Sequence record: OR472545.1
Strand: one strand, 5' to 3'
DNA from: Escherichia phage vB_EcoM_50EP
Length of the DNA: 50,636 nt
Part shown: piece by piece, positions 11,485-44,262 of the stretch
Position numbering within the stretch: the first letter of the stretch is position 1
Layout: each line of letters starts with the position of its first letter
The notes under the pieces: generated by a model
What the model saw: the letters and a program-made list of their open reading frames with translations, nothing else
Database searches by the model: none
Told to the model about the DNA's origin: nothing
Program-made: the position numbers and the translations under genes

Positions 11485-14400
11485 ATGATTAAAAATAATG
11501 TAGTGACGGGCCGAAAGGGTGGAGGCAGTAAGCCTCACACACCACAGGAGATGGAAGACAACCTGATCTCAATCAACAAGATTAAGGTTTTGCTCGCTGT
11601 CAGTGATGGTGAGGTTGATGAGAATTTCTCATTAAAGGACTTATATCTTAATGACGTTCCTGTGATTGCACCTTCAGGCGAAGTTAACTATGAAGGTATT
11701 AAGGCTGAGTTCCGCCCAGGCACGCAGACTCAGGATTACATCAAAGGATTCAACGACACGGCGGCTGAGTTCACTGTTGGTCGTGAATTGACGACTACGA
11801 CGCCTTACGTGATCTCAGTAACAAACAAGCAGCTTTCCGCCGTCCGCGTCAAGGTAATGATGCCTCGCGGCGTAAAGACGGAAGAAAACGGCGACATGGT
11901 CGGGGTTGTCGTCAATTGGGCTGTTGATATGGCTGTTGATGGCGGGAGCTATCAGGAAGTATTGTCTGACACAATAGACGGAAAGACAATTAGCGGGTAT
12001 GACAGGACTAGGCGCATTGACTTGCCGACATTTAATAGTCAAGTCCTTCTTCGGGTTCGTCGTATTACTCCTGATTCGAATAATGCAAGAGTTGTTGACG
12101 CGATCAACATTCAGTCATATGCGGAAGTTATTGACGCTAAATTCCGTTATCCTCTGACTGGTCTTGTTTACGTCGAGTTTAACAGCGATCTTTTCCCGCA
12201 GATCCCAAGCATTAGCACGAAAAAGAAATGGAAGATCATCAACGTTCCGAGCAACTACGACCCAGTGCTGAGAGAATACAGCGGCACATGGGATGGCAGC
12301 TTTAAAAAAGCGTGGTCAAATAACCCCGCGTGGGTGCTTTATGATTTGATTACCAATCAGAGATATGGACTCGACCAAAGAGAACTAGGGATCGCGGTCG
12401 ATAAGTGGTCGCTATATGATGCTGGTCAATACTGCGATCAGAAAGTTCCTGACGGTCACGGAGGTTTGGAGCCTCGCTACCTTTGCGACGTGGTAATCCA
12501 GTCTCAGGTTGAGGCTTACAATCTGGTTCGAGATATTTGCTCAATATTCCGAGGGATGAGCTTCTGGAACGGCGAGAGCCTTTCAATTGTCATCGACCGA
12601 CCGCGAGAGGCGTCTTATATTTTCACTAACGACAACGTCGTTGACGGCTCATTTGCCTATACGTTCGCAAGTGAAAAAAGCATGTACACGACTTGCAACG
12701 TCACATTTGACGATGAGCAAAACATGTACAGCCAGGATATTGAGGGCGTATTCGACCTTAACGCATCGTTACGGTTCGGGCACAACCCTACAAGCATCAC
12801 CGCGATCGGATGTACTCGACGAAGCGAGGCGAACCGACGAGGCCGCTGGGTTCTTAAAACAAACCTTCGCAGCACGACGGTGAGTTTTGCAACTGGCCTT
12901 GAGGGTATGATTCCGATGATTGGCGACGTAGTGGCTATCGCTGATAACTTTTGGTCAAGCAACCTGACGCTTTCATTATCAGGTCGTGTCATGGAAGTAT
13001 CTGGACTGCAAGTGTTCACTCACTTTAAAGTCGATGCTCGTGCTGGTGACTTTATTATCGTCAATAAGCCTGACGGTAATCCGGTTCGCCGTACTATTTC
13101 AAAGGTATCGGCAGACGGAAAGACGATTGAGCTTAATGTTGGTTTTGGTTTTGATGTTAAGCCCAACACTGTTTTCGCAATCGACAGAACTGACGTGGCT
13201 TTGCAGAAATACGTCGTAACTGGAATCACGAAGGGTGACGGTGATGATGAGTTCACATACAGCATCACGGCGGTTGAGTATGATCCCAATAAATACGACG
13301 AGATCGACTACGGAGTAAATATTGATGACCGACCAACCAGTATTGTAGATCCTGACAACATGCAGCCACCAAAAAACATTGTTGTTTCATCATACTCTCG
13401 AATTGTGCAGGGGATGAGCGTTGAGACAATGGTGATAGGGTGGGATAAAGTTCAGTACGCGAGCAAGTACGACGTGCAGTGGAGAAAGGATAACGGTAAC
13501 TGGATGAACGTACCGCGTACAGCAAGCTCAGAGGTTGAGGTTGAAGGGATTTATGCGGGTAATTATCACGTACGCGTAAGGAGCATATCAAGCGGTGGAA
13601 ACACGTCTCCATGGTCTGATGTTGTCAGCGTTGGGTTGACTGGTAAGATTGGGAAGCCAAATAAACCAACAGTCATAACCGCATCTGACGATCAGGTATT
13701 TGGGATCAGGGTTAAATGGGGATTCCCTGAAGGTTCTGGCGACACTGCCTACACTGAATTGCAGCAGATACCAGATAATGGTGCCGGAGGTCACACTGGT
13801 GAGGAGAATGCAAGTCTATTAACAATGATTCCTTACCCTCAGTACGAGTACTGGCACTCAACATTACCAGCAGGTTATGTAAACTGGTACAGGGCAAGAT
13901 TGGTAGACAGGATTGGTAACGCCTCTGACTGGTCTGACATTGTTCGCGGAATGGCAAGCGATGACGTTGAGTCCATCATTGGAGAAATAAAGGTTGATAT
14001 CGAGAATTCCGATGGGTTTAAGTACCTACAGCAGAACGCCATTGAGTCAAACGGAGCTATTCAGGCGCAGGCGGAATCAATTCTTGAAAACGCACTTGCA
14101 AACGATACTGACGTGCGACGAATGACCAAGGAGAACGGCAAGAGAAAAGCTGAATACGTTCAGGCAGTGAATCTTATTGCCGATGAAACTCAGGCTCGCG
14201 TAGAGGCTCTCACGGCCCTTAAAGCGCAGATAGATGATGAAGTTGTAGCATCGATTACAGAAGTTCAGACTGCATTAGCCACAGAGACAGAAGCAAGGAC
14301 TACAGCAGACACGGCTTTGAGCGCTCAACTTGGCGATACGCAGGCCGTGCTTAATGAAAAACTTGACTCTTGGGTAGATGCGGAATCTGCTGGCGCTCAG

Positions 14401-17721: not shown

Positions 17722-18378
17722 ATGCGTACATCAGAGAAGTTTTCGAATGTTTCAGCCGCTCTAATTGCAGCTAAAAAGCAGTTTGCCATAGCAAAAAAAT
17801 CAGGCTTTAACACTCACCTGAAAACCCATTACTCAAACTTAACGGACGTTTTGGAGGCCGTAGAGCCAGCGTTAAAAGAGCATGACCTTATGGTTATCCA
17901 GTCAAATCTGGACACGTCAACCGAAAAGGTAATGCACATTGAGACGCTCATCCTTCACAGTTCCGGCGAGTGGCTTGCGTTCCAGTACAACATGCCGATC
18001 GAGAAGATTAGCGCCCAGGCTTACGGATCAACAACTTCATACGGTCGCCGTTACGCATTATGCGCAGCGCTTGGAATCACTCAGAGCGATGACGACGCTG
18101 AAATCGCTAAGCGCACGGCAGCGGACTACAAAAAACTTATCACCAATTGTGAAAAGCTGGAAGACCTCCAGGTGATTTATAAGAGCGCTAAGGGTTCACT
18201 CGGAGCGGCGGAATGGAAGATTGCAGAGGACCACTTGCAGAAGCGCAAGGCTGAATTGAGTATTGGTAGCGCTCGCGGTTTCCAGCCAGCGAAAAAGGCA
18301 GATACGCAAAAGGTTGATGATAAGGTTGCCAATGCACCTTCCGAGCCTGTACAATCTGAATCCATCGAACAATTCTAA
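17722..18378 (+). CDS. erf: ERF-family single-strand annealing protein
   Basis: N-terminal region resembles ERF family; sits between exonuclease and SSB. Confidence 0.5.
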   Translation: MRTSEKFSNVSAALIAAKKQFAIAKKSGFNTHLKTHYSNLTDVLEAVEPALKEHDLMVIQSNLDTSTEKVMHIETLILHSSGEWLAFQYNMPIEKISAQAYGSTTSYGRRYALCAALGITQSDDDAEIAKRTAADYKKLITNCEKLEDLQVIYKSAKGSLGAAEWKIAEDHLQKRKAELSIGSARGFQPAKKADTQKVDDKVANAPSEPVQSESIEQF

Positions 18379-18416
18379 TTAACGGGGCTTCTGCCCCATC
18401 CAAAAAGGAAAATACA

Positions 18417-18875
18417 ATGCCACACGTAATCACTGGTCAGATCCGCAAAGCCCCATACACCAAAGAAGGCAGCAACAACAACGGTCGTTGGAAAATGTAC
18501 GCCGTTGAACTGTCAGAACGCATGAAGATTCGAAATCAAAATGGGGAGGATGAGACGGTTTACAGTAACTACCGCGCCACGTTCTTCGCAAAAGAAAACG
18601 TTATGCAGTGGTATGATGAAGCGTTCCAGGAAGGTAAGGTTGTATCAATTTCTGCCGACACGCTTCACCTGGCGTCACGCCAGGGTAATGACGGCACGGT
18701 GTATGTAACCGCCGAAATGATCCGGCCTCAGTTGCAATTCAGCCAGCGTGAACCAGCGCAGCATGGACAAGGTCAGCAACAACAACGCCAACAGGCTCAG
18801 CAACAGCAGCAACAACGCCAGCCTCAGCAGCAACCGAATCAATCAATGCAATTCGACGATGACATTCCTTTCTGA
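18417..18875 (+). CDS. ssb: single-stranded DNA-binding protein
   Basis: Gln-rich linker and canonical acidic C-terminal tip FDDDIPF. Confidence 0.75.
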   Translation: MPHVITGQIRKAPYTKEGSNNNGRWKMYAVELSERMKIRNQNGEDETVYSNYRATFFAKENVMQWYDEAFQEGKVVSISADTLHLASRQGNDGTVYVTAEMIRPQLQFSQREPAQHGQGQQQQRQQAQQQQQQRQPQQQPNQSMQFDDDIPF

Positions 18876-29772: not shown

Positions 29773-30140
29773 TTGCAGCGGTGATTATGCTTTCTGGTTG
29801 CTCTGCTACATCGGCTCTGACTGGTTTAATTGGCAGTAAGCCAGAAATTAGCGCGCAGGCTGGGGCCGAGAACGTGAAGCAAACGGTAGGCGTTACCGGA
29901 AAGGTGGATAAGTCAAACGACAACGACACCACTATCAAAGATTCAAAGGTAGGAAAGGTTGATACGTCAAACGGGAAGTCTGTCAGCACCTCAAGCATCA
30001 AGGCTGACACTATCATCGCTGATAAGATTGAGATCAGGAATGATGACTCTAAAGGTAATCTGATTTCCGGACTGGTATTCCTGTTCATCGGCATTGCGAT
30101 GATTGCTATTTCAATCTGGCTGGAACGACGCAAAAAATAA
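29754..30140 (+). CDS. unimolecular spanin
   Basis: N-terminal lipoprotein signal (LSGC) plus C-terminal TMD in one 128-aa protein, as in T1 gp11. Confidence 0.55.
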   Translation: MFKGIVIAAVIMLSGCSATSALTGLIGSKPEISAQAGAENVKQTVGVTGKVDKSNDNDTTIKDSKVGKVDTSNGKSVSTSSIKADTIIADKIEIRNDDSKGNLISGLVFLFIGIAMIAISIWLERRKK

Positions 30141-30142
30141 AA

Positions 30143-30167
30143 GGAGCCGAAAGGCTCCCTTTTTTTA
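30143..30167. terminator. bidirectional rho-independent terminator (GGAGCCGAAAGGCTCC + T8)
   Basis: same hairpin core as 1455; between convergent lysis and accessory operons. Confidence 0.6.
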
Positions 30168-30303
30168 TCCAAATCTTTGCACCAGCAGCAACAATTCTCC
30201 TTCATTGTTGCATAGAGTATGTTCATCACGTCGTCCGGCGCGCATGGATGAGTTAAGCATTGAAAGAAGGGCTTGGTTAAGCCCGTCCTCGCTAATCCCA
30301 TTC

Positions 30304-30678
30304 TCAGAACTGCATCTGATTATCGCGTCGATTACGACCTGGCTTTCCGAATAACTCTTCATCGCTCATCTTCTCTATGTTCATCATCTCCCATGTATAG
30401 CGATCGTTCTCACCGCCATAGCACCTGAAATGAAATTCAAATGGCCTTTTTTGCGCCCCTTTGGACCAGTACCAGTTGTTCACGCCGTCAAGGTATCCTT
30501 CGCCCATGCATCTTGCGATGAACTCCTTTGATGCTGATGATGCGAAGTAGCGAGGCGTAACTCCGGCAGCCTTCGCCAGTCGATCGCACTCCCTATGCTT
30601 GTATATGAATACCGCCAGGTGCTGACGGTTGAATTTTTCATAGCCTTCGCAAAAACGGTACAGATCCAGAAGAAACAT
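30304..30678 (-). CDS. hypothetical protein
   Basis: 124-aa ORF at end of minus-strand operon. Confidence 0.4.
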   Translation of the reverse strand: MFLLDLYRFCEGYEKFNRQHLAVFIYKHRECDRLAKAAGVTPRYFASSASKEFIARCMGEGYLDGVNNWYWSKGAQKRPFEFHFRCYGGENDRYTWEMMNIEKMSDEELFGKPGRNRRDNQMQF

Positions 30679-30681
30679 AAT

Positions 30682-32265
30682 TTACCCCAGCAGTCGCGGA
30701 TTAATGTAAATTTTATCACCAATCAGGCACGTATAGTTTTTCTCATCCAGCATAGGGATCAGATGGTCTTTGATGCGAGTCATTACACCAGCCTGGCCCT
30801 CGAATGGCTTAACCTTACGCGCCGCTTCATATAGGGATCGGACACCTACAACGCCTTTCCCGTTCTTGCCTTGCTTGATCAGGATGTCAATAAGCTTGTT
30901 CATCTCCGCATGGTCGCCAGCGTGACCAGCAGCGTTTGCAGATGACAGATAAGTTTTACTCAGTTCCTGGAACATAATTACAGCTTCTTGCATTGTATCA
31001 AGCTCAATCTCTCTGGACTTCTGCGGACTTCCGCCATTGGGATTAAACCAGTTACGCACAGTGTGAAGAACAGCCGCGATCCTGATAGCCTGCTTATCGA
31101 ACTTACCCAGCGCGCCGCGAAGCATTGTGTGTGAATACTTCCCGCCGTCCGCAAGGTGAGGTTCCATATCCTGACGCGCACGGTTGAGATATTTCATCGC
31201 CGACGTGCTCACTGTCAGGTTGACTTCGTGTTCGCTCATGATCTCATGGACCAGACGGAAGTAGTCCGCCTTGAGTCCTCCATCAATCGGCTCGTATGTT
31301 GATTCGCCTTTTTCGTCAACGAATACACGCTCGCCAAGGAATGACTTCTCACGCACAAGCAAGAAACGTTCTGACACACCGATACCACGCGCACCAGCAT
31401 TCATGATCGCGTTGATTGTTTCATCCTGTGCAATTACAGAGATGCAACCCATCGCAATAAAGCTCATGTTATTGTCTGCGTTCGCACGCGCGATAGATAC
31501 GTTACCAGCATCCCATGCTTTCAGCACAAGCTCGCTGTTCGTTTTCTTTGAGCCATCACCATAGGTCATGCCTAACAGTGAGTTTACGCTCGTCGCTTCA
31601 TCCGAGATCACAGAGAAGTTACCCTGGCGGTTGTTGATTCGCGCCAGACCTTCCGGCGTGGTGTCGGATACGGGGAATACGATGTCACAAAGGCGTTCCA
31701 GTTTTTCTTCCAGTTCTTCTTTTTCCTCAAACAGTGCCGCCATGTCGGACGGTGATTTTTCCTGCTTCATCTCCTTGGATAGAGCAGATAGTTTAGCCAT
31801 AATCTTCTTGCGGTCGCGCTTTCGGATCTCGTTGAGTCGTTCAGTCTCTGCGATCATCGGGGCCAGAGAAAGTGAGTTAATGGCTGATTTACCTGTCGAT
31901 GGTGGCTGACTGGTTACGACGTAAAGAGCGGTCGGCTGTTGTGTTCCGTGATACTCAACCGTAAATCGGCCCAGCATGGCGGCTGATATGCATCCGAGGA
32001 AATGCATGTAAGCGGACGACTCGGGGAACTGAACTGAACGAGCGGCATTGCTTGACAGCTTACCAACGACATCATAATCGTTACCAAGTGAGATAACCGG
32101 ATATTTGTCACCGCCTGAGTCAATTTCTGTTGGGGCTTTCCAGAATGATTGGCTCTGCCTGTATCCGTTCGCATTGATGGCAACGCGCAAAGGTGGCAGG
32201 TTATCGGCAGCGGCTACAGCCATTACCTGATCGATAGACAATTTATCTTCGTTAAAATCAAACAT
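30682..32265 (-). CDS. P-loop NTPase, unknown family (possible replication/primase-associated ATPase)
   Basis: Walker A-like PPSTGKS; 527 aa; N- and C-terminal ends shared with mini-paralog at 36693..37262. Confidence 0.5.
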   Translation of the reverse strand: MFDFNEDKLSIDQVMAVAAADNLPPLRVAINANGYRQSQSFWKAPTEIDSGGDKYPVISLGNDYDVVGKLSSNAARSVQFPESSAYMHFLGCISAAMLGRFTVEYHGTQQPTALYVVTSQPPSTGKSAINSLSLAPMIAETERLNEIRKRDRKKIMAKLSALSKEMKQEKSPSDMAALFEEKEELEEKLERLCDIVFPVSDTTPEGLARINNRQGNFSVISDEATSVNSLLGMTYGDGSKKTNSELVLKAWDAGNVSIARANADNNMSFIAMGCISVIAQDETINAIMNAGARGIGVSERFLLVREKSFLGERVFVDEKGESTYEPIDGGLKADYFRLVHEIMSEHEVNLTVSTSAMKYLNRARQDMEPHLADGGKYSHTMLRGALGKFDKQAIRIAAVLHTVRNWFNPNGGSPQKSREIELDTMQEAVIMFQELSKTYLSSANAAGHAGDHAEMNKLIDILIKQGKNGKGVVGVRSLYEAARKVKPFEGQAGVMTRIKDHLIPMLDEKNYTCLIGDKIYINPRLLG

Positions 32266-32297
32266 CTTATTCTCTCTCGTTGTTATCGATGGGTATA

Positions 32298-32341
32298 AAT
32301 ATACCCGCCGAAGCGGGTATTGTCATTAACAAAAAGTGCTA
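32298..32341 (-). promoter_or_regulatory. TAGCAC-box promoter cassette (minus)
   Basis: rc: TAGCACTTTTTGTTAATG ... CCCGCTTCGGCGGG hairpin ... TATATT. Confidence 0.4.
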
Positions 32342-32548
32342 TTTTTTGAAGTGCCCTGGCGCATAGCATTTTCCATCCTTCTTATGCAAAACCCACCCAG
32401 CAGATTTAAGTTGCCTTGCACAATCAGAAAAGTTCTCGCCAGCAGCGTCCGTATAGTGTGGCATAAAATAATGCCCATCATCATTTGACTCAGTTGAGCA
32501 CTTCTTGCAGTCGCAATAAACAGCGATGGAATAACCTGAAACAATCAT
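32339..32548 (-). CDS. small Cys-rich protein (possible zinc-binding)
   Basis: 69 aa with CDCKKC ... C ... C pattern. Confidence 0.35.
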   Translation of the reverse strand: MIVSGYSIAVYCDCKKCSTESNDDGHYFMPHYTDAAGENFSDCARQLKSAGWVLHKKDGKCYAPGHFKK

Positions 32549-32898
32549 TTGTAAGCCGCCTCAAACTTATACATCCCATAACCAACATCATATCCAACCT
32601 CATCATCACGAGTGAGTTGCCAGCCGTCGCCGTCATTGTCGTAGATGTAGCCGGCATTACGACCTAATCCAGCGTGCATGGAGATCTGATAGCGCTTTCC
32701 TTCAGTGAATGATTTCTTAAGTGGATTGCTGTGGTCAACTTTTGTACATAGCAGGGTTTTGGTCTTAATGTAGCGCCCCTTGACGTCCAGGTTAACCCAC
32801 TTGCCATCAACCTTGATTTGCTCTACCTCATCTTTCACGCGAGCTTTCAGCATGCGGTTATCTGATGTGACGAAGTTTTTGGTGATAGTGGTAGCCAT
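32545..32898 (-). CDS. hypothetical protein
   Basis: 117 aa, ATGA-coupled to downstream gene. Confidence 0.4.
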   Translation of the reverse strand: MATTITKNFVTSDNRMLKARVKDEVEQIKVDGKWVNLDVKGRYIKTKTLLCTKVDHSNPLKKSFTEGKRYQISMHAGLGRNAGYIYDNDGDGWQLTRDDEVGYDVGYGMYKFEAAYK

Positions 32899-32936
32899 GA
32901 TTATTTTCCTTTAGTGTGTTTCGTTTCGATGAGATG

Positions 32937-32979
32937 AATATACAGGAAAAGCCCCGAAGGGCTTTAGCAATTCGTGCTA
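32937..32979 (-). promoter_or_regulatory. TAGCAC-box promoter cassette (minus)
   Basis: rc: TAGCACGAATTGCTAAAG ... GCCCTTCGGGGC hairpin ... TATATT ... CATCGAAACGAAAC. Confidence 0.45.
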
Positions 32980-33489
32980 TCTTCCATGGTTTTCATGAAA
33001 ACCAAGCCTTGCATTGGCTGACATTCTCATGCATACAGCCTCAAACCAATCTTTTGACGTTCCGAGCTTTATATTTCTCCTTTTTCCACCATCCTTTATC
33101 TCAACCTGAGCCAGCCAAGTGTTTCTATCAGACCTCCACACAACGCCGCACACGCCGCTTTTGTTTAGTGGGCTTTTGCTGAAATTTCTACAATTTCCAG
33201 ATCTGGAAACAAGCCTGTGATTGCTGTCGGAATTGTCATCTCTTATGTGATTTATGTGATCAACCTCCATCCCCTCTGGTATCACGCCGTGCCTCATCTC
33301 CCAAATTATTCTATGATGAGGGTGGCATACTCCGTTAACCTCAGAATAAAGGTATCCATTCATTACATATCCTGCTAAATCGCCAGGTCTTATCTGATTA
33401 TTTCCTCTAATCCAAAAAAGCCTGTCATTCACTAGTTCAAAATGCTTTGTCCAGTCATTACTTATTGCTTTCATAAATCGCTCTCGCAA
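32977..33489 (-). mobile_element. HNH homing endonuclease with AP2-like DNA-binding domain
   Basis: HRIIWEMRHG ... VDHINHIRDDN ... N HNH pattern followed by GVCGVVW...W.A...GK AP2-like segment. Confidence 0.6.
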
Positions 33490-34126
33490 AACCTTCCGGT
33501 GTTAATGAGCGGAGTACCTTTGTCTTTGCAGACTTTCCGCCGCAGTATTTCCAGGCCCAGAAGAATCCAATGCTCTCAACTGGCTTTTTAATAGGTTCAA
33601 CAAATCCATTGCCACACCAAATGCAAGTCTTTTTATTGTAAGCATTACGAGTGGGCATTCTTGGGTGATAAACATCATCGTGATCAACGTAACCGCCATA
33701 ATCGCAAGGATTGAAATAGAAGTCAGGCTTACGCCACAGGCTTGACAGTTTGCCTACAGGATTCTCAACCATCCATGGGGCATTAAAGTGATTGCCGACT
33801 TCTTCGACTAACTTCGCGTTAGCCAGAGCATACGCCAGTTCATCTTCCCCGCGCTCATGCTGTGATCCAGACTGAGAGAACAGCGTGCAATCAGGAAAGC
33901 CGATAACCATTTGCGCCGGAGGCAGGCCGAGCAATTCACACTTATTGATGAAATCCTTGTCAATCCACATGTTGACGTAGTGGATGTTCTCATGCTTCAT
34001 CTTGATGTGATATTCGCCATGATTGCCGGAGTCCGCGTTGAAGCAGTAGACGGTGTGACCATCTTCCGCCCATGGGAGGCCAGCAATACCAGAACCGTCG
34101 AACAAGCAGTAAATTACCTTTTTCAT
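33458..34126 (-). CDS. putative DNA (cytosine-5) methyltransferase-like protein
   Basis: FDGSG (motif I-like), GFPDC..FSQSG (PC motif-like), ENPVG (ENV-like); short at 222 aa so uncertain. Confidence 0.4.
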   Translation of the reverse strand: MKKVIYCLFDGSGIAGLPWAEDGHTVYCFNADSGNHGEYHIKMKHENIHYVNMWIDKDFINKCELLGLPPAQMVIGFPDCTLFSQSGSQHERGEDELAYALANAKLVEEVGNHFNAPWMVENPVGKLSSLWRKPDFYFNPCDYGGYVDHDDVYHPRMPTRNAYNKKTCIWCGNGFVEPIKKPVESIGFFWAWKYCGGKSAKTKVLRSLTPEGFARAIYESNK

Positions 34127-34296
34127 TTCTTCTTTGCCTTCTCAATTGCTTTCTGTGTGATTTCAAAGCTGCTTTGTAGGTCGGATTCTGTTTTGCGGCT
34201 CATGTTTAGATCGCTTGCTGTAAGTCTATACCCTGGTCGCGAGATTCCCGCTACAACCTGCATATCACCACAATTCAAATCGGATGGCTTGAGCAT
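34123..34296 (-). CDS. small hypothetical protein (57 aa, below track threshold), translationally coupled to the methyltransferase-like gene
   Basis: manually translated; ATGA overlap at 34123-34126 and TAATG overlap at 34294-34298. Confidence 0.3.
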   Translation of the reverse strand: MLKPSDLNCGDMQVVAGISRPGYRLTASDLNMSRKTESDLQSSFEITQKAIEKAKKK

Positions 34297-34535
34297 TATT
34301 TCACCTCATCAAACGTTGCGATACCAGGGATAAACATTCCGACCTTCCAGCCTGCGATAGCAATCCAGCCAGAATCGTGCTTGTGCGGTCTCTCAGCGCC
34401 ATTAATCACCCATTCGTTCGGGATTGTCTTACCGTTAATGATTAGCGCCTCAGCGTCGTATACAGAGCCTTTTACGAACGGTGTCAAAACCTTCTTGTCG
34501 GTGCTGGTGATTACGTTAGTGCATTTTACTTTCAT
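34296..34535 (-). CDS. hypothetical protein
   Basis: 79-aa ORF in operon. Confidence 0.4.
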   Translation of the reverse strand: MKVKCTNVITSTDKKVLTPFVKGSVYDAEALIINGKTIPNEWVINGAERPHKHDSGWIAIAGWKVGMFIPGIATFDEVK

Positions 34536-34544
34536 GATCTCACC

Positions 34545-34760
34545 TTAGAACGGGATTCCGTCATCAAATTTTAAGCGGTAGTCGAAATCATCCCCGATCC
34601 CGTCTACTGACTGGTTGCTTTCGCTTTCCAGATCCATATCCATAACGCCCAATGCGTCATCGAGTTCGATGCATCCGTAAGCAACCTTGATCGCCCACTC
34701 TTCATTGAGTCCGGCTTCAAGTGCCGCGCGGTGGCGGCTCCAGAAATTATCTTGATGCAC
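34545..34760 (-). CDS. small acidic protein with SSB-like C-terminal tip (FDDGIPF)
   Basis: 71 aa; C-terminus DDFDYRLKFDDGIPF resembles SSB tail FDDDIPF of this phage's own SSB. Confidence 0.45.
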   Translation of the reverse strand: MHQDNFWSRHRAALEAGLNEEWAIKVAYGCIELDDALGVMDMDLESESNQSVDGIGDDFDYRLKFDDGIPF

Positions 34761-34762
34761 TG

Positions 34763-34987
34763 TTAGCTCCAGGAATTGATGTAAAGTGAGTTATCGTTTA
34801 ACAGGTTGACCATCTCAGCACGGGTAAGGCTACGGATGATTGATCCTGGATGAGTGCCAACAACGTAGCGGTCGAACTCACGGCGCGTAATGGTGATTTG
34901 GCTTACGCCTGCGGCGCGGTCCAGCTTGACGATTGCACGGCCTTTTGCTTCGATGTGTGCTACTACGTTCTGAGCTTTAACTGACAT
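34763..34987 (-). CDS. hypothetical protein
   Basis: 74-aa ORF after cassette. Confidence 0.4.
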   Translation of the reverse strand: MSVKAQNVVAHIEAKGRAIVKLDRAAGVSQITITRREFDRYVVGTHPGSIIRSLTRAEMVNLLNDNSLYINSWS

Positions 34988-35023
34988 TTTTACTTCCTCT
35001 TTGTGTACTTCGTTTCGATGAAA

Positions 35024-35068
35024 TGATTATGCCTCATTCCGTGAGGCTTCGTTTAGCAATTCGTGCTA
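35024..35068 (-). promoter_or_regulatory. TAGCAC-box promoter cassette (minus)
   Basis: rc: TAGCACGAATTGCTAAAC ... GCCTCACGGAATGAGGC hairpin ... CATCGAAACGAAGT. Confidence 0.45.
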
Positions 35069-35070
35069 TT

Positions 35071-35262
35071 TCAGAATTTAACTTTCTCGACTACCTGGAC
35101 CATCTCGTATCCAAGGCGGTAACTGTCACCAAGGATTAATCGGCCCATGAACTGATCTTGCGTGAAGCTCTCCTTGCCCATGGTCCGAAGCGCTCCGTGA
35201 TGGATGATGGTGTCGCCTACCTTCACGTCGTTCTTGTGCGTCAAAACAATTTCGTTAGCCAT
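35071..35262 (-). CDS. hypothetical protein
   Basis: 63-aa ORF. Confidence 0.35.
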   Translation of the reverse strand: MANEIVLTHKNDVKVGDTIIHHGALRTMGKESFTQDQFMGRLILGDSYRLGYEMVQVVEKVKF

Positions 35263-35275
35263 TATGCTGATCCCC

Positions 35276-35458
35276 TTACATGTGTTTCATGTAGAAAGCG
35301 ATTTCACGGATGTTGTCCTCTGGATGAGCCTTCACGACTACCGCGAACATCTTCTCAACCAGCGACTTGGTGCTCTCAGGGTTGTAACCTTCCTGGACCA
35401 GCATGGCGATAGTGTTTTCGATGGTAACTGGTGAGTTCTTGTTGATGCGCTTAGCCAT
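35276..35458 (-). CDS. hypothetical protein
   Basis: 60-aa ORF after cassette. Confidence 0.35.
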   Translation of the reverse strand: MAKRINKNSPVTIENTIAMLVQEGYNPESTKSLVEKMFAVVVKAHPEDNIREIAFYMKHM

Positions 35459-35494
35459 GATGATTTCCTTTAGTGCGTGCCGTTTCGATGAGGT

Positions 35495-35538
35495 AATAAT
35501 AGCTAATCACTCCTGATCGGTCATTAGCAAAAAGTGCT
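35495..35538 (-). promoter_or_regulatory. TAGCAC-box promoter cassette (minus)
   Basis: rc: TAGCACTTTTTGCTAATG ... TATTAT ... CATCGAAACGGCAC. Confidence 0.45.
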
Positions 35539-35552
35539 ATTCGTTCGATTTA

Positions 35553-35665
35553 TGGATTGTTGCAGCTATTGCAATGATTAACTTCACTATTGCACATATA
35601 GCAATATTGCATCCTTTGCAATGACGTTTTCGATTGTTGCGAATTGAGCAATGATTCATTGATGG
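35553..35665. repeat. cluster of at least 7 TTGCA(A/T) / GCAATGATT direct and inverted repeats
   Basis: ATTGTTGCAGCTATTGCAATGATTAACTTCACTATTGCACATATAGCAATATTGCATCCTTTGCAATGACG...TTGCGAATTGAGCAATGATTC. Confidence 0.5.
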
Positions 35666-35788
35666 GGGGAATGATGGGGTGAGATCTGATCCCCTGATCG
35701 CCTGGTAGGATTTTCCCGCCACACGTTTCTAGCGCATACGCGTTATGCATGTTATGCTCTGTAGACAAATCCATCCGGCGTGGAATCA

Positions 35789-35905
35789 GGTACGCATATA
35801 ACGCCTATTTACGCTATGGTTACAATAAAATATCCTTATATAACAACCCTTTATCTATATTATTATTATTATTATATATATATGTAGATAATGTAGATAA
35901 GGGAT
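35789..35905. repeat. AT-rich control-region core with GGTTACA motifs and (ATT)n tract; homologous to 16226..16340
   Basis: TTTACGCTATGGTTACAATAAAATATCC...ATTATTATTATTATTATATATATAT alignable with first locus. Confidence 0.5.
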
Positions 35906-36174
35906 ACGAGATATTGCGATAGTTTTCTATGATACATTCTGACACTTGTAAGAATGGGATGACATTGTAGGAATAAAAAGGCATATATGGGGCAATCCTC
36001 CGCGAAATTTGATGTACAAGCTGTACACAGTGGTTACATTGAGCTATATCTGGCCCGAGAGGTCGCAAAACGTAACTAAGTCGAACATTTGCATCAATAA
36101 CACTTGATAACATGTAACCACGCTGGTAATATTGCACCCATCTTAACGAAGACCACCAATCAGGAGTAACATCT

Positions 36175-36696
36175 ATGTCAAATCATAATCAACCCGTAAG
36201 CCTGGGCGATGTCGTCCGCTACATGGCGGAGCAGGCGCTCAAGTCCGAGAACCGCAGCTACCACGTTCCAATCCACCTGATAGCTCGCCAGATGTACGGC
36301 CTCACGGCTGATGATATGGGCAGAATCAATGCCGACGACCTTGAGGCTGGCGGTAAGTACAGCGTTGCAAAGCTGAAAGCCTCGTACGTCTCTAACACGG
36401 TTGCCAGGATGCCAGAGATTCAGGCGGCGAACGTTCGGGCCAAGCTGTCAATCAAGGATGGCGACTTCGGGGATGATGTAGATGTTCGATGTGCTTACAT
36501 CACCCTGGTTGATGGTGCGATCCAGACCGGAACACGACACAAGGGTGACGCGGAAAAGGAGGCGGTCATCGTTGAAAGGTTCAAGTCTCGGTTGCTCAAG
36601 ATCACACCGAACGTCATCGACCTGCAAGGTGAGCAGAAAGAAGGTGCGCTCATTGCCCTGGCTCGCTACCATGAAATGATCAAGGATACTAAATGA
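36175..36696 (+). CDS. hypothetical early protein
   Basis: 173-aa ORF, first gene after AT-rich region, RBS AGGAG. Confidence 0.45.
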   Translation: MSNHNQPVSLGDVVRYMAEQALKSENRSYHVPIHLIARQMYGLTADDMGRINADDLEAGGKYSVAKLKASYVSNTVARMPEIQAANVRAKLSIKDGDFGDDVDVRCAYITLVDGAIQTGTRHKGDAEKEAVIVERFKSRLLKITPNVIDLQGEQKEGALIALARYHEMIKDTK

Positions 36697-37262
36697 TGAG
36701 CATGTTTGATTTCAGTGAAGATAAACTAACAGATGAGCAGGTGATTGAAGTTGCCATGATTGATGGTCTACTTCCGCTGCGAGTTGCGATCAGTCATAAC
36801 GGATACCGACAGTCGTTCAAATACTGGTGCAGCGCGGAAGAGATGCTTCGTGTCAAGCTCGACAGAAAGCTCGCCGTCGTCACCCATAAGATACACGACC
36901 AGGCGAAAAGAGGTAAGGGAGTTGTAGGCATTCGATCAACATACGAGGCGATCAGGAAGTTGCATCCTTTCGTCGGGCGCAATGGTGTCATGAATGACCT
37001 GAATGATAACATTCTGCCAGCGCTCCAGGGCGCCGGAATAATTTGCGTTATTGGTGACAAGATATATGCTCACCCTGCATTGGTTGGTATGGATGGTCGC
37101 GACGTCTATAAGTGGTGCAACGCCTGGCGCGCTGTGGAGCGCCGCAAATCTCAGAGCAAATTGCAGTCCAGCTCAGATCTGATTCATGGCTATGATGCAG
37201 ATGAGGTCAGAAAGGCCATCCAGTTCTACCGGAAAGCGAAATCTCTCCTGAACGGTGAATAG
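36693..37262 (+). CDS. mini-paralog of the P-loop ATPase (N- and C-terminal segments only, ATPase core absent)
   Basis: MFDFSEDKLTDEQV...LPLRVAI..NGYRQS and KRGKGVVGIRSTYEA...GDKIYAHPALVG align to the ends of the 30682..32265 product. Confidence 0.45.
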   Translation: MMSMFDFSEDKLTDEQVIEVAMIDGLLPLRVAISHNGYRQSFKYWCSAEEMLRVKLDRKLAVVTHKIHDQAKRGKGVVGIRSTYEAIRKLHPFVGRNGVMNDLNDNILPALQGAGIICVIGDKIYAHPALVGMDGRDVYKWCNAWRAVERRKSQSKLQSSSDLIHGYDADEVRKAIQFYRKAKSLLNGE

Positions 37263-43863: not shown

Positions 43864-44262
43864 ATGAAATTACGTTGCGTTAAAATACATCCAGGGTTAG
43901 CGCCGCTGCTCGAAGATCACTTTCAGGTTGGTCATGTGTACGAAGCTAAACGCAGGCCAAACCGCCACCTCAACGTGGCTGATGTTATTGATGTGGATAA
44001 CGGCCTTACTTGGTACGCCATCCAGAAAGGCAGTAAGTTTAACCTGAATCTCGCAAGCGGCAAAGCAGTCACTTTCGCGGTAGTAAAAGGTCCGCGCCGC
44101 TTAGTAGTGACGGAAAAACGTGTAACTGGCGTCCTTAATGATAAGCGTAAGTTCCGCCGTATGTGTCGCCAGTATGGAAAGCTGCGATTCACCGAGCCTG
44201 GGATGTTCTGCTTCATCGCCTTTGCGGCAATGAAAAAGAATGCACGTAATCACCAGCGATAG
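43864..44262 (+). CDS. hypothetical basic protein
   Basis: 132-aa ORF. Confidence 0.4.
   Translation: MKLRCVKIHPGLAPLLEDHFQVGHVYEAKRRPNRHLNVADVIDVDNGLTWYAIQKGSKFNLNLASGKAVTFAVVKGPRRLVVTEKRVTGVLNDKRKFRRMCRQYGKLRFTEPGMFCFIAFAAMKKNARNHQR

What the first reader, a model, noticed from the sequence alone, without database searches (positions are those of the whole stretch)
30304..35458. Minus-strand accessory block of at least 13 genes between a bidirectional terminator and an AT-rich control region
This block is inverted relative to the flanking lysis and early modules and is organised as small operons, each started by a box cassette. It combines a P-loop ATPase, a Cys-rich small protein, an HNH-AP2 endonuclease, a methyltransferase-like protein, the SSB-tail-like protein and several unknown small ORFs. 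The mix of nuclease, methylase and small acidic proteins is typical of accessory and anti-defence loci. Functions are largely unassigned.
Basis: inference. Interest (0 to 1): 0.6.

Follow-up and report, generated by a model that had tools for sequence, protein, structure and literature searches.

The report
Leftward early gene arm of T1-like phage
This is the well-conserved leftward non-structural gene arm of a T1-like coliphage (equivalent to phage T1 genes 1-10): a replication-helicase core with a changeable set of small accessory genes, so it is real but ordinary rather than a new anti-defence island.

Summary
Window 30165-35458 carries 13 tightly packed minus-strand genes (95% coding). They lie between a bidirectional terminator (30139-30162) and a 716-bp non-coding region with a 21-23% GC trough. 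Four copies of a genome-wide promoter box divide them into four operons.

The window is a Drexlerviridae genome closest to ESCO41 and TH21, and the block is the counterpart of phage T1 genes ST1-ST10.

- **Conserved 3' half.** It holds a DUF3987 (MCM-like, SF6) helicase found in 924 phage records, a winged-helix protein (g124, 832 records) and g117 (821 records).
- **g117.** Its family is already known as the trigger of the Mokosh type I defence in phage SECphi27, and it is dispensable there.
- **Variable 5' half.** It holds a minimal 222-aa C5-cytosine methyltransferase (fold confirmed), an inserted HNH homing endonuclease, a small protein ending in an SSB-like ...DDGIPF tail, and small genes shared with unrelated phages.
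- **Anti-defence.** No gene is a known anti-defence protein.

The box repeat is already published for phage TLS.

Verdict: already known architecture, low to moderate interest. The SSB-tail protein is the best lead.

The parts
30139..30162 (.). Bidirectional intrinsic terminator shared by the lysis operon (+) and the block (-)
   Evidence: GC hairpin with a T-run on both strands. T1 has an annotated terminator at the equivalent place, 43966-43988.
30165..30362 (-). g65, 65 aa, acidic (pI 4.9), phrog_9539; the 13th gene, overlapping g124 by 59 nt
   Evidence: PHROG E 2.6e-33. Only this frame finds T1 and TLS-like relatives. Annotated in ESCO41 as gp29.
30304..30678 (-). g124, 124 aa, winged-helix-like protein immediately downstream of the helicase (3-nt gap); homologue of T1 ST10
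30682..32265 (-). DUF3987 (SF6, MCM-like) helicase, 527 aa; deviant Walker A QPPSTGKS and Walker B VISDE; homologue of T1 ST9
   Evidence: Pfam PF13148, 134.8 bits against a cut-off of 27. phrog_2373. Found in 924 records. Function from PMC4889955 and PMC11724360.
32298..32343 (-). Promoter cassette P4: box 32343-32326, hairpin ATACCCGC-TTCG-GCGGGTAT, -10 TATATT 32303-32298
32339..32548 (-). cys69, 69 aa, 5 Cys (CxCxxC...C...C), phrog_926; present only sporadically in relatives
   Evidence: Present in ESCO41 and one Rogue1-like locus (96% identity) but absent from most loci.
32545..32898 (-). g117, 117 aa, phrog_2684; conserved C-terminal domain (residues 42-116). Homologue of T1 ST7 and of the SECphi27 128-aa Mokosh type I trigger.
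   Evidence: Found in 821 records, 318 of them full-length. BLASTP 55% over 75 aa, E 8e-25, to the SECphi27 protein, which sits in the same position. Escaper mutations E7fs, C102*, Y109C.
32937..32981 (-). Promoter cassette P3: box 32981-32964, terminator-like hairpin GCCCCTTCGGGGC followed by TTTT, -10 TATATT 32942-32937
32977..33489 (-). HNH homing endonuclease (HNH_3 plus a weak AP2-like C-terminus); likely start is the ATG at 33474. It is a 478-bp insertion (32981-33458) relative to ESCO41.
   Evidence: Pfam HNH_3 4.9e-13 and AP2 0.095. phrog_99. Insertion boundaries from blastn.
33458..34126 (-). Minimal (222 aa) C5-cytosine DNA methyltransferase-like protein, phrog_757
   Evidence: No Pfam, NCBIfam or PDB sequence hit. 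AF2 pLDDT 86. Top Foldseek hits are all C5-methyltransferases: DNMT3B 1.7e-7, 3g7u 1.5e-6, M.HaeIII 4.9e-6. Invariant DGSG (after a near-invariant Phe), FPxC, ENP and GxGF (GNGF in the window).
34123..34296 (-). g57, 57 aa, phrog_4548, fast-evolving small protein
34296..34535 (-). g79, 79 aa, phrog_4448, function unknown; unusually well conserved (86-95% identity to Rtp- and Rogue1-like phages)
34545..34760 (-). g71, 71 aa, acidic (pI 4.1): N-terminal helical domain, DALGxMDMDxES motif, C-terminal ...FDDGIPF (SSB-tail-like); homologue of T1 ST6
   Evidence: phrog_9085. Family alignment and C-termini. Found in 439 phage records.
34763..34987 (-). g74, 74 aa, basic (pI 10.1), phrog_4344; directly upstream of its g71 homologue in every relative examined that has one; homologue of T1 ST5
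35026..35070 (-). Promoter cassette P2: box 35070-35053, hairpin GCCTCA-CGGAA-TGAGGC, -10 CATAAT 35031-35026
35071..35262 (-). g63, 63 aa, phrog_3623; a promiscuous small gene also found in Dhillonvirus, Felixounavirus and T-even-like phages
35276..35458 (-). g60, 60 aa, DUF7421 / phrog_7717; more than 90% identical only in TH21 and one other record, otherwise about 44% identical to RB49-like T-even phage genes
35496..35541 (-). Promoter cassette P1: box 35541-35524, -10 TATTAT 35501-35496
35459..36174 (.). Non-coding divergent control region. It contains P1 (leftward), a consensus-like rightward promoter (TTGATA-17-TAATAT, 36104-36132), TTGCA-type repeats (35555-35660) and an AT trough (35800-35950).
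   Evidence: It is 70-89% identical at DNA level to distant genera. The ESCO41 record is linearised at 35559/35560.

Best explanation
The block is the leftward arm of the divergent non-structural region of a T1-like (Drexlerviridae) phage, the counterpart of T1 genes 1-10.

**Transcription (inferred).** Host sigma-70 RNA polymerase reads it from four promoters. Each has the family-wide element ATAGCAC-N4-TTGnTAA at a fixed 20-22 nt upstream of a -10 hexamer. GC hairpins embedded in cassettes P2-P4 probably stop or attenuate the preceding unit. The last unit ends at a terminator shared with the convergent lysis operon.

**Conserved promoter-distal operon (P4).** It supplies the phage's DUF3987/SF6 helicase together with a winged-helix partner (g124) and g65. 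This is a replication function.

**Upstream operons.** They carry non-essential, exchangeable early genes:
- g117, whose family triggers the Mokosh type I defence;
- an orphan minimal C5-cytosine methyltransferase, probably protecting phage DNA from some restriction enzymes;
- a selfish HNH homing endonuclease;
- a g74-g71 pair in which g71 displays an SSB-like C-terminal tail;
- small genes that move between phages.

**Shown and inferred.** Shown here: gene content, order, conservation pattern, promoter-box geometry, and the folds of two products. Inferred: timing, promoter activity, helicase role, methylation and the function of the tail.
For: **Identity with T1 ST1-ST10 and ESCO41 gp20-gp29.**

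**Backbone and variable genes.** Presence/absence matrix, indel boundaries that coincide with promoter cassettes, and database-wide counts of 924, 832, 821, 439, 167 and 414 records.

**Promoter boxes.** 22 copies against 0.41 expected. The gap to the -10 is 20-22 nt in 19 of 21 copies, and 15 of those 19 have hairpins of -7.8 kcal/mol or stronger. [quoted passage not shown]

**Helicase.** Pfam 134.8 bits; literature.

**Methyltransferase fold.**

**g124 winged helix.**

**g117 as Mokosh trigger, and dispensable.**

**HNH mobility.**, and PMC13164509.
Against: **No expression data.** No transcript or timing data exist for this phage, so 'early' is inferred from position and from the T1 and TLS literature.

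**Promoter anatomy is unusual.** The boxes lack a good -35 hexamer at 17 bp. The box could instead be an operator or activator site, and the TLS authors left its function open.

**Helicase role is indirect.** The phage also encodes a second, SNF2-type helicase elsewhere, so which one is the replicative helicase is not established.

**g124 fold match is generic.** Foldseek E was above 0.2.

**Methyltransferase doubts.** Activity is untested, and BASEL phenotyping found no simple link between Drexlerviridae methyltransferases and restriction resistance (PMC8594841).
Confidence: 0.8

Rival explanations
1. One reading: the whole block is an accessory, anti-defence island whose products mainly neutralise host immunity (restriction, abortive infection).
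For: - The 5' half varies between relatives.
- An orphan C5-methyltransferase is present.
- g71 carries an SSB-like tail that could act as a decoy.
- g60 and g63 are shared with unrelated phage families, as morons are.
- The g117 family interacts with a defence system and is dispensable.
Against: - The largest and most conserved genes (DUF3987 helicase, g124) are a replication-type function present in more than 830 genomes.
- No known anti-defence family was recognised.
- DefenseFinder found none in a T1-like genome (PMC13164509).
- g117 is a trigger, not an inhibitor.
- The HNH gene is selfish DNA, not defence-related.
Confidence: 0.2
2. The whole block is a dedicated replication-initiation module. 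The helicase, the winged-helix g124, g117, and g74/g71 (recruiting host SSB partners) all act at an origin located in the adjacent AT-rich region.
For: - The helicase and a winged-helix protein sit next to each other.
- The adjacent non-coding DNA has a 21-23% GC trough and repeats. It is conserved at 70-89% DNA identity across genera.
- A helicase N- plus C-terminal paralogue (p189) is encoded on the other side.
- g71 has an SSB-like tail.
Against: - g117 tolerates frameshift and nonsense mutations in SECphi27.
- g74 and g71 are absent from Rtp- and Rogue1-like phages, which keep the helicase.
- The methyltransferase, HNH, g60 and g63 have no replication role.
- The origin of T1-like phages is unmapped, and the TLS authors found no iterons.
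- The AT-rich region is also where relatives' records start, which is consistent with a packaging (pac) role instead.
Confidence: 0.15
3. The small ORFs are chance reading frames, and the block contains only three or four real genes.
For: Several ORFs are below 80 aa and have no Pfam domain.
Against: - Every ORF matches a PHROG family at E 4.6e-10 or better.
- Homologues are detected at protein level in relatives whose DNA has diverged.
- The block shows 95% coding density, Shine-Dalgarno sequences and start/stop overlaps.
Confidence: 0.01

Closest known systems
Phage T1 genes ST1-ST10 (NC_005833, 43999-48674, minus strand) and ESCO41 gp20-gp29
   Same: - Same position, between the spanin terminator and the genome-end / divergent region.
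- Same orientation.
- Same order: g74, g71, ..., g117, helicase, g124, g65.
- An HNH gene lies inside the block.
   Different: - T1 lacks the C5-methyltransferase, g79, g57, cys69, g60 and g63, and has other small genes (ST1-ST4) instead.
- Its HNH gene sits between ST7 and the helicase.
- ESCO41 lacks the HNH gene at this site and has a different P1 operon.
DUF3987 / SF6 (MCM-like) helicases, e.g. AgaPH (PriCT-DUF3987) and phage N4 dns
   Same: - Pfam DUF3987 across residues 81-430.
[quoted passage not shown]
- A separate C-terminal domain of about 60 aa, as described for the family's winged helix.
   Different: - No PriCT domain and no fused primase.
- The phage's primase is encoded about 9 kb away on the same strand.
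- Activity is untested here.
C5-cytosine DNA methyltransferases (M.HaeIII, Dcm, DNMT3 catalytic domain, CP-933R 3g7u)
   Same: - Rossmann-type fold matched at Foldseek E 1e-7 to 1e-5.
- Motif I FDGSG, a catalytic-loop Cys, and motif X GNGF.
   Different: - Only 222 aa, with almost no target-recognition domain.
- P-x-C instead of PC, and ENP instead of ENV.
- Not recognised by Pfam PF00145, NCBIfam or PDB sequence profiles.
SECphi27 128-aa protein, trigger of Mokosh type I (Stokar-Avihail et al., bioRxiv 10.1101/2022.08.27.505566)
   Same: 55% identity over the C-terminal 75 residues, and the same genomic position between the methyltransferase and the helicase.
   Different: The N-terminal 40 residues are unrelated. 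Whether the window's protein triggers Mokosh is untested.
E. coli SSB C-terminal tip (MDFDDDIPF) and the phage's own SSB (18360-18872, ends DDDIPF)
   Same: g71 ends ...KFDDGIPF, after an acidic linker.
   Different: - g71 has no OB fold and is not an SSB.
- In other genera the tail follows a Cys4 knuckle (CxC..CxxC-[IF]PF) or ends IPW or IPFW.
TLS 21-nt direct repeat aaATAGCACnnnTTGnTAAAA (PMC11447400)
   Same: Same sequence, same orientation with respect to transcription, similar copy number (21 against 22), same intergenic placement.
   Different: Added here: a fixed 20-22 nt distance to a -10 hexamer, and an embedded hairpin of non-conserved sequence.

Membership tests
Drexlerviridae leftward early arm (T1 genes 1-10 type) | Minus-strand block between the lysis-operon terminator and the divergent, genome-end region | tested here: met
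Drexlerviridae leftward early arm (T1 genes 1-10 type) | Syntenic core: g117-like, DUF3987 helicase, g124-like | tested here: met
   tblastn order in T1, TLS, Rtp, Rogue1-like, Sd1, Webervirus and SECphi27
Drexlerviridae leftward early arm (T1 genes 1-10 type) | ATAGCAC...TTGnTAA repeats upstream of operons, in the direction of transcription | tested here: met
DUF3987 / SF6 replicative helicase | Pfam PF13148 above the gathering score | tested here: met
   134.8 bits against 27
DUF3987 / SF6 replicative helicase | [quoted passage not shown] | tested here: met
   QPPSTGKS and VISDE, read in the translation; the first position of Walker A is deviant
DUF3987 / SF6 replicative helicase | ATP-dependent 5'-3' unwinding and an essential role in replication | not testable with these tools
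   Shown only for AgaPH (PMC11724360)
C5-cytosine DNA methyltransferase | Class I methyltransferase fold closest to C5-methyltransferases | tested here: met
   The top 21 Foldseek PDB hits are all C5-methyltransferases, E 1.7e-7 to 7e-5, TM about 0.5
C5-cytosine DNA methyltransferase | Catalytic motifs I (FxGxG), IV (PC), VI (ENV) | tested here: inconclusive
   FDGSG is present. Motif IV is F-P-x-C and motif VI is E-N-P; both are invariant across 33 sequences but deviate from the canonical forms.
C5-cytosine DNA methyltransferase | Match to the curated family profile (Pfam PF00145 or NCBIfam) | tested here: not met
   No hit even at E up to 10. One of 120 listed relatives has a precomputed PF00145 hit.
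C5-cytosine DNA methyltransferase | 5mC formation at a defined DNA motif | not testable with these tools
   -
HNH homing endonuclease | HNH catalytic domain | tested here: met
   HNH_3, 48.9 bits against 24.8
HNH homing endonuclease | Presence/absence polymorphism at the site among close relatives | tested here: met
   A 478-bp insertion relative to ESCO41, whose flanks are 89-94% identical. HNH genes sit at other positions in T1, ETEP102 and mar001J1.
   AP2 13.5 bits against a cut-off of 33.3, E 0.095
SSB C-terminal-tip mimic | Acidic stretch ending in I-P-F at the extreme C-terminus | tested here: met
   ...DDFDYRLKFDDGIPF
SSB C-terminal-tip mimic | Tail conserved across the family | tested here: inconclusive
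   10 of the 11 full-length sequences from the representative search end in hydrophobic-P-F/W or IPFW. All 14 aligned sequences keep I-P, then F, or W in T1; further genera end FPF or IPFW. The acidic part is present only in a subset; others have a Cys4 knuckle.
SSB C-terminal-tip mimic | Binding to host SSB-interacting proteins | not testable with these tools
   -
Anti-defence locus | At least one product belonging to a characterised anti-defence family | tested here: not met
   No such annotation in Pfam, PHROG, NCBIfam or PADLOC. No dedicated anti-defence library was available. DefenseFinder was negative for a T1-like genome (PMC13164509).
Anti-defence locus | Gene content variable among close relatives | tested here: met
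   True for the 5' half only
Mokosh type I trigger family (SECphi27 128-aa protein) | Sequence and positional homology to the experimentally defined trigger | tested here: met
   55% over 75 aa, E 8e-25, same neighbours

The most novel reading that the evidence does not exclude
The conserved g74-g71 pair may be a new kind of small phage effector. g71 (71 aa, not an SSB) would use an SSB-like C-terminal tip (...DDGIPF; hydrophobic-P-F/W conserved across genera) to dock into the SSB-tail pockets of host proteins such as Exo I, RecQ, PriA or the Pol III chi subunit. It would act either as a decoy that disables host DNA repair or defence, or as an adaptor that brings host replication factors to the phage helicase encoded in the same arm.
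Probability: 0.25. Interest if true: 0.6.

Novelty: already known. Interest (0 to 1): 0.27.

Why it matters
The block itself adds nothing new to phage biology. It is the standard leftward arm of T1-like phages, annotated (mostly as hypothetical proteins) in hundreds of genomes, and its promoter-box repeat is already published.

Its value is as a tidy map of which genes are backbone and which are exchangeable, and as a source of cheap, testable leads:
- A 222-aa C5-methyltransferase family that curated profiles miss, although it occurs in about 1,500 phage records.
- A family-wide Mokosh type I trigger, which predicts that most Drexlerviridae are sensed by that defence system.
- A small protein with an SSB-like tail, which may connect the phage to the host SSB interactome.
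- A promoter architecture (box at a fixed distance from the -10, with an embedded hairpin) whose mechanism is still open.

Tried and rejected
**Sequence searches that found nothing useful.**
- PDB sequence searches of the methyltransferase (single sequence and profile), helicase, g124 profile, g79, g117 and g74.
- NCBIfam.
- PADLOC gave only homing-endonuclease models.
- Rfam gathering scan of the whole window: no match.
- Pfam at E up to 10 for the small proteins gave only noise.

**Literature.**
- Searching the box sequence as a word returned unrelated papers.
- The Rtp genome paper is not held.
- A search for published SSB-tail mimics found nothing relevant.
- Papers on Klebsiella anti-defence genes and on Zorya/Druantia/ARMADA had no bearing on these genes.

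**Ideas considered and rejected.**
- The cassette TTGCTA as the -35 hexamer: the spacing of 21-22 nt is too long.
- A MotA-box-like element: it is at the wrong distance.
- The 74-aa and 105-aa ORFs in 35550-36137 as genes: they have no family support.
- A 'cytidine deaminase' reported for T1-like phages as a member of this block: it could not be placed here, and no product shows the motifs.

Full report
**What the window is.** A megablast search of the block finds 179 phage records. The best are Escherichia phages TH21, ESCO41 (genus Nouzillyvirus, Drexlerviridae) and XT34, at 93-95% identity over about 81% of the block. The window is therefore a whole T1-like genome. In ESCO41 the same genes are gp20-gp29, and in phage T1 they are ST1-ST10. 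In all three they lie on the minus strand between the spanin terminator and the end of the record.

**Checking the observation.**
- *ORFs.* Twelve minus-strand ORFs lie inside 30304-35458, and each matches a PHROG family at E 4.6e-10 or better.
Of the six frames of that stretch, only the g65 frame detects T1 and TLS-like relatives (E 1e-8 to 1e-24). It is a real gene. T1 has an unannotated homologue at 44169-43999.
- *Packing.* The span 30165-35458 is 95% coding, with Shine-Dalgarno sequences and 2-13 nt gaps or start/stop overlaps inside operons. GC skew is negative only across the block.
- *Terminator.* The hairpin at 30139-30162 scores as a terminator on both strands.
- *Box cassette.* AATAGCAC-N4-TGCTAA occurs 22 times in the window against 0.41 expected. 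Four copies sit on the minus strand at 35541, 35070, 32981 and 32343, exactly in the four intergenic gaps longer than 70 nt.
- *Control region.* 35459-36174 is non-coding by family evidence. GC falls to 21-23% at 35800-35950.

**Operon structure.**
- In 19 of 21 box copies the box ends 20-22 nt upstream of a -10-like hexamer. That places the box centre near -42, too far upstream for its TTGCTA to act as a -35 hexamer.
- Fifteen of those 19 copies have a hairpin of -7.8 kcal/mol or stronger, of non-conserved sequence, between the box and the -10 or flanking the -10. In cassettes P2-P4 the hairpins look like terminators for the preceding unit (GCCCCTTCGGGGC-TTTT; ATACCCGC-TTCG-GCGGGTAT-ATTT).
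- The repeat itself is not new. [quoted passage not shown] The authors also saw it in T1, Rtp and Rogue1 and left its function open (stoperator, enhancer site or UP element) (PMC11447400).
- In this window the boxes are confined to the non-structural half of the genome. The block is therefore probably co-regulated with the recombination, replication and lysis genes.

**What the genes are.**
- *P4 operon: helicase.* The 527-aa protein is a DUF3987 protein (Pfam 134.8 bits against 27) with Walker A and B motifs. The family was predicted to be SF6 (MCM-like) replicative helicases with a C-terminal winged helix (PMC4889955). A PriCT-DUF3987 protein has since been shown to be a 5'-3' helicase that binds its primase (PMC11724360).
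- *P3 operon.* g117 has a conserved C-terminal domain. cys69 has five cysteines.
- *P2 operon.* It carries g74, g71, g79, g57, the 222-aa methyltransferase-like protein and the HNH endonuclease.
- *The methyltransferase-like protein.* It has no Pfam, NCBIfam or PDB sequence match, even with a 33-sequence profile. Its model (pLDDT 86) hits only C5-DNA methyltransferases at the top of the Foldseek list: DNMT3B 1.7e-7, prophage CP-933R 3g7u 1.5e-6, M.HaeIII 4.9e-6, DNMT1 and DNMT2. The family keeps an invariant DGSG after a near-invariant Phe, F-P-x-C, E-N-P and GxGF (GNGF in the window). It is a minimal C5-methyltransferase with almost no target-recognition domain.
- *The HNH gene.* It has HNH_3 at 4.9e-13 and a weak AP2-like tail.
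- *P1 operon.* It carries g60 (DUF7421) and g63.

**Which genes are backbone and which vary.**
- *Order.* Across 28 related metagenome-derived loci plus T1, ETEP102, a Webervirus, a Warwickvirus and SECphi27, the order is collinear: (variable small genes), g74, g71, (g79, g57, methyltransferase, HNH), g117, (cys69), helicase, g124, (g65).
- *Backbone.* In the 50,697-record phage collection the helicase is in 924 records, g124 in 832 and g117 in 821.
- *g71.* It is in 439 records.
- *Methyltransferase.* The family is in 1,488 records, including rV5-like and other unrelated phages. It is in only 13 of 26 local loci with a full-length helicase.
- *g60 and g63.* They are absent from all the local loci. 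g60 is above 90% identical only in TH21 and one other record, and g63 only in XT34 and one other. Their next relatives are in RB49-like T-even phages, Dhillonvirus and Felixounavirus. In SECphi27 they sit on the opposite, rightward arm.
- *Indels against ESCO41.* Window 32981-33458 (the HNH gene) is an insertion that ends exactly at the P3 box. The P1 operon is replaced between the P1 and P2 cassettes. The repeated cassettes therefore coincide with the mosaic boundaries.

**A literature link not visible from annotation.** Stokar-Avihail et al. isolated SECphi27 mutants that escape Mokosh type I. All carried changes (E7fs, C102*, Y109C) in a '128-aa protein of unknown function', and expressing that protein was toxic only in cells with Mokosh (bioRxiv 10.1101/2022.08.27.505566). 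That ORF lies at SECphi27 7015-6629, between the methyltransferase and helicase homologues. It is 55% identical to g117 over 75 residues (E 8e-25). The g117 family is therefore a known defence trigger, and it is dispensable for plaque formation.

**The SSB-tail protein.**
- g71 ends ...KFDDGIPF. The phage's own SSB (18360-18872) ends DDDIPF.
- Across genera the family keeps a 48-residue N-terminal domain, a DALGxMDMDxES motif and a terminal hydrophobic-P-F/W.
- The segment before the tail is acidic in some members (this window, T1, others) and a CxC..CxxC knuckle in others (TLS, Webervirus, Warwickvirus).
- An exhaustive HMMER search finds only 17 clusters at 50% identity.
- In every relative examined that has a g71 homologue, g74 sits directly upstream of it.
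- The tail resemblance is real for this phage. The inference that it binds host SSB partners is untested.

**Verdict on the interpretation.** However, it is not an anti-defence island. Its conserved half is a replication-type module. No product belongs to a known anti-defence family (PMC13164509). The HNH gene is selfish DNA. The one experimentally characterised family is a trigger rather than an inhibitor. Drexlerviridae methyltransferases have been proposed to counter restriction, but BASEL phenotyping found no simple correlation (PMC8594841).

**Novelty and score.** The architecture, the box repeat and most annotations are already public, so I rate it 'already known' with interest 0.27. The residual interest lies in g71, in the minimal methyltransferase family that curated profiles miss, and in the unresolved promoter-box mechanism.

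Noticed in passing
window 36693-37262 (+): A 189-aa protein (phrog_7327) is a 'mini-helicase'. Residues 4-51 match helicase residues 1-48 (58% identity) and residues 70-132 match helicase 465-527 (54%). The whole ATPase core is missing. It is encoded on the opposite arm of the control region and is conserved in relatives. It could compete or cooperate with the helicase at its DNA or protein partners.
   Followed up: partly
22 sites genome-wide, e.g. 17641, 25398, 38519, 39849, 40925, 44258 (+) and 35541, 35070, 32981, 32343 (-): The published T1/TLS box repeat sits at a fixed 20-22 nt from a -10 hexamer in 19 of 21 copies and contains the dyad TAGCA-N5-TGCTA. Fifteen of those 19 copies have a hairpin of -7.8 kcal/mol or stronger whose sequence differs from copy to copy; it lies before the -10 or brackets it. 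About half have an extended -10 (TGn), and none has a good -35. Copies are almost absent from the structural-gene half of the genome. The mechanism is unexplained.
   Followed up: partly
window 35480-35990: This non-coding DNA is 70-89% identical to Rtp-, Rogue1- and Sd1-like genera, whose neighbouring proteins are only 50-70% identical. It holds about eight TTGCA-type repeats (35555-35660), a palindrome (35589-35622), a (TAA)n/(TA)n run at 21-23% GC and a TGTAGATAA doublet. The ESCO41 record is linearised at 35559/35560. It is a candidate packaging (pac) site or replication origin.
   Followed up: partly
window 33458-34126 (-) and relatives: The roughly 220-aa C5-methyltransferase-like family is large: 904 clusters at 90% identity and 1,488 phage records, also in rV5-like and other phages and in enterobacterial chromosomes. 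It escapes Pfam PF00145 and NCBIfam. It would be among the smallest C5-methyltransferases if active.
   Followed up: partly
L034 (SECphi27) 12574-12957 (+) compared with window 35071-35458 (-): The g60-g63 gene pair lies on the rightward early arm in SECphi27 but heads the leftward arm in this window. The pair moves as a unit between the two divergent arms.
   Followed up: no
window 34296-34535 (-): g79 is 86-95% identical to its homologues in Rtp- and Rogue1-like phages, where g124 is only 50-70% identical and g117 56-88%. This points either to recent horizontal exchange or to unusually strong constraint on an unknown 79-aa protein.
   Followed up: no
L002 (phage T1, NC_005833) 43999-44169 (-): The T1 reference record has an unannotated homologue of g65 (39% identity over 57 aa) between ST10 and the terminator.
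   Followed up: yes
window 36104-36132 (+): The rightward arm starts with a near-consensus sigma-70 promoter (TTGATA-17-TAATAT with an upstream TG) that has no box, unlike the promoters that follow it. It may be the immediate-early promoter.
   Followed up: no
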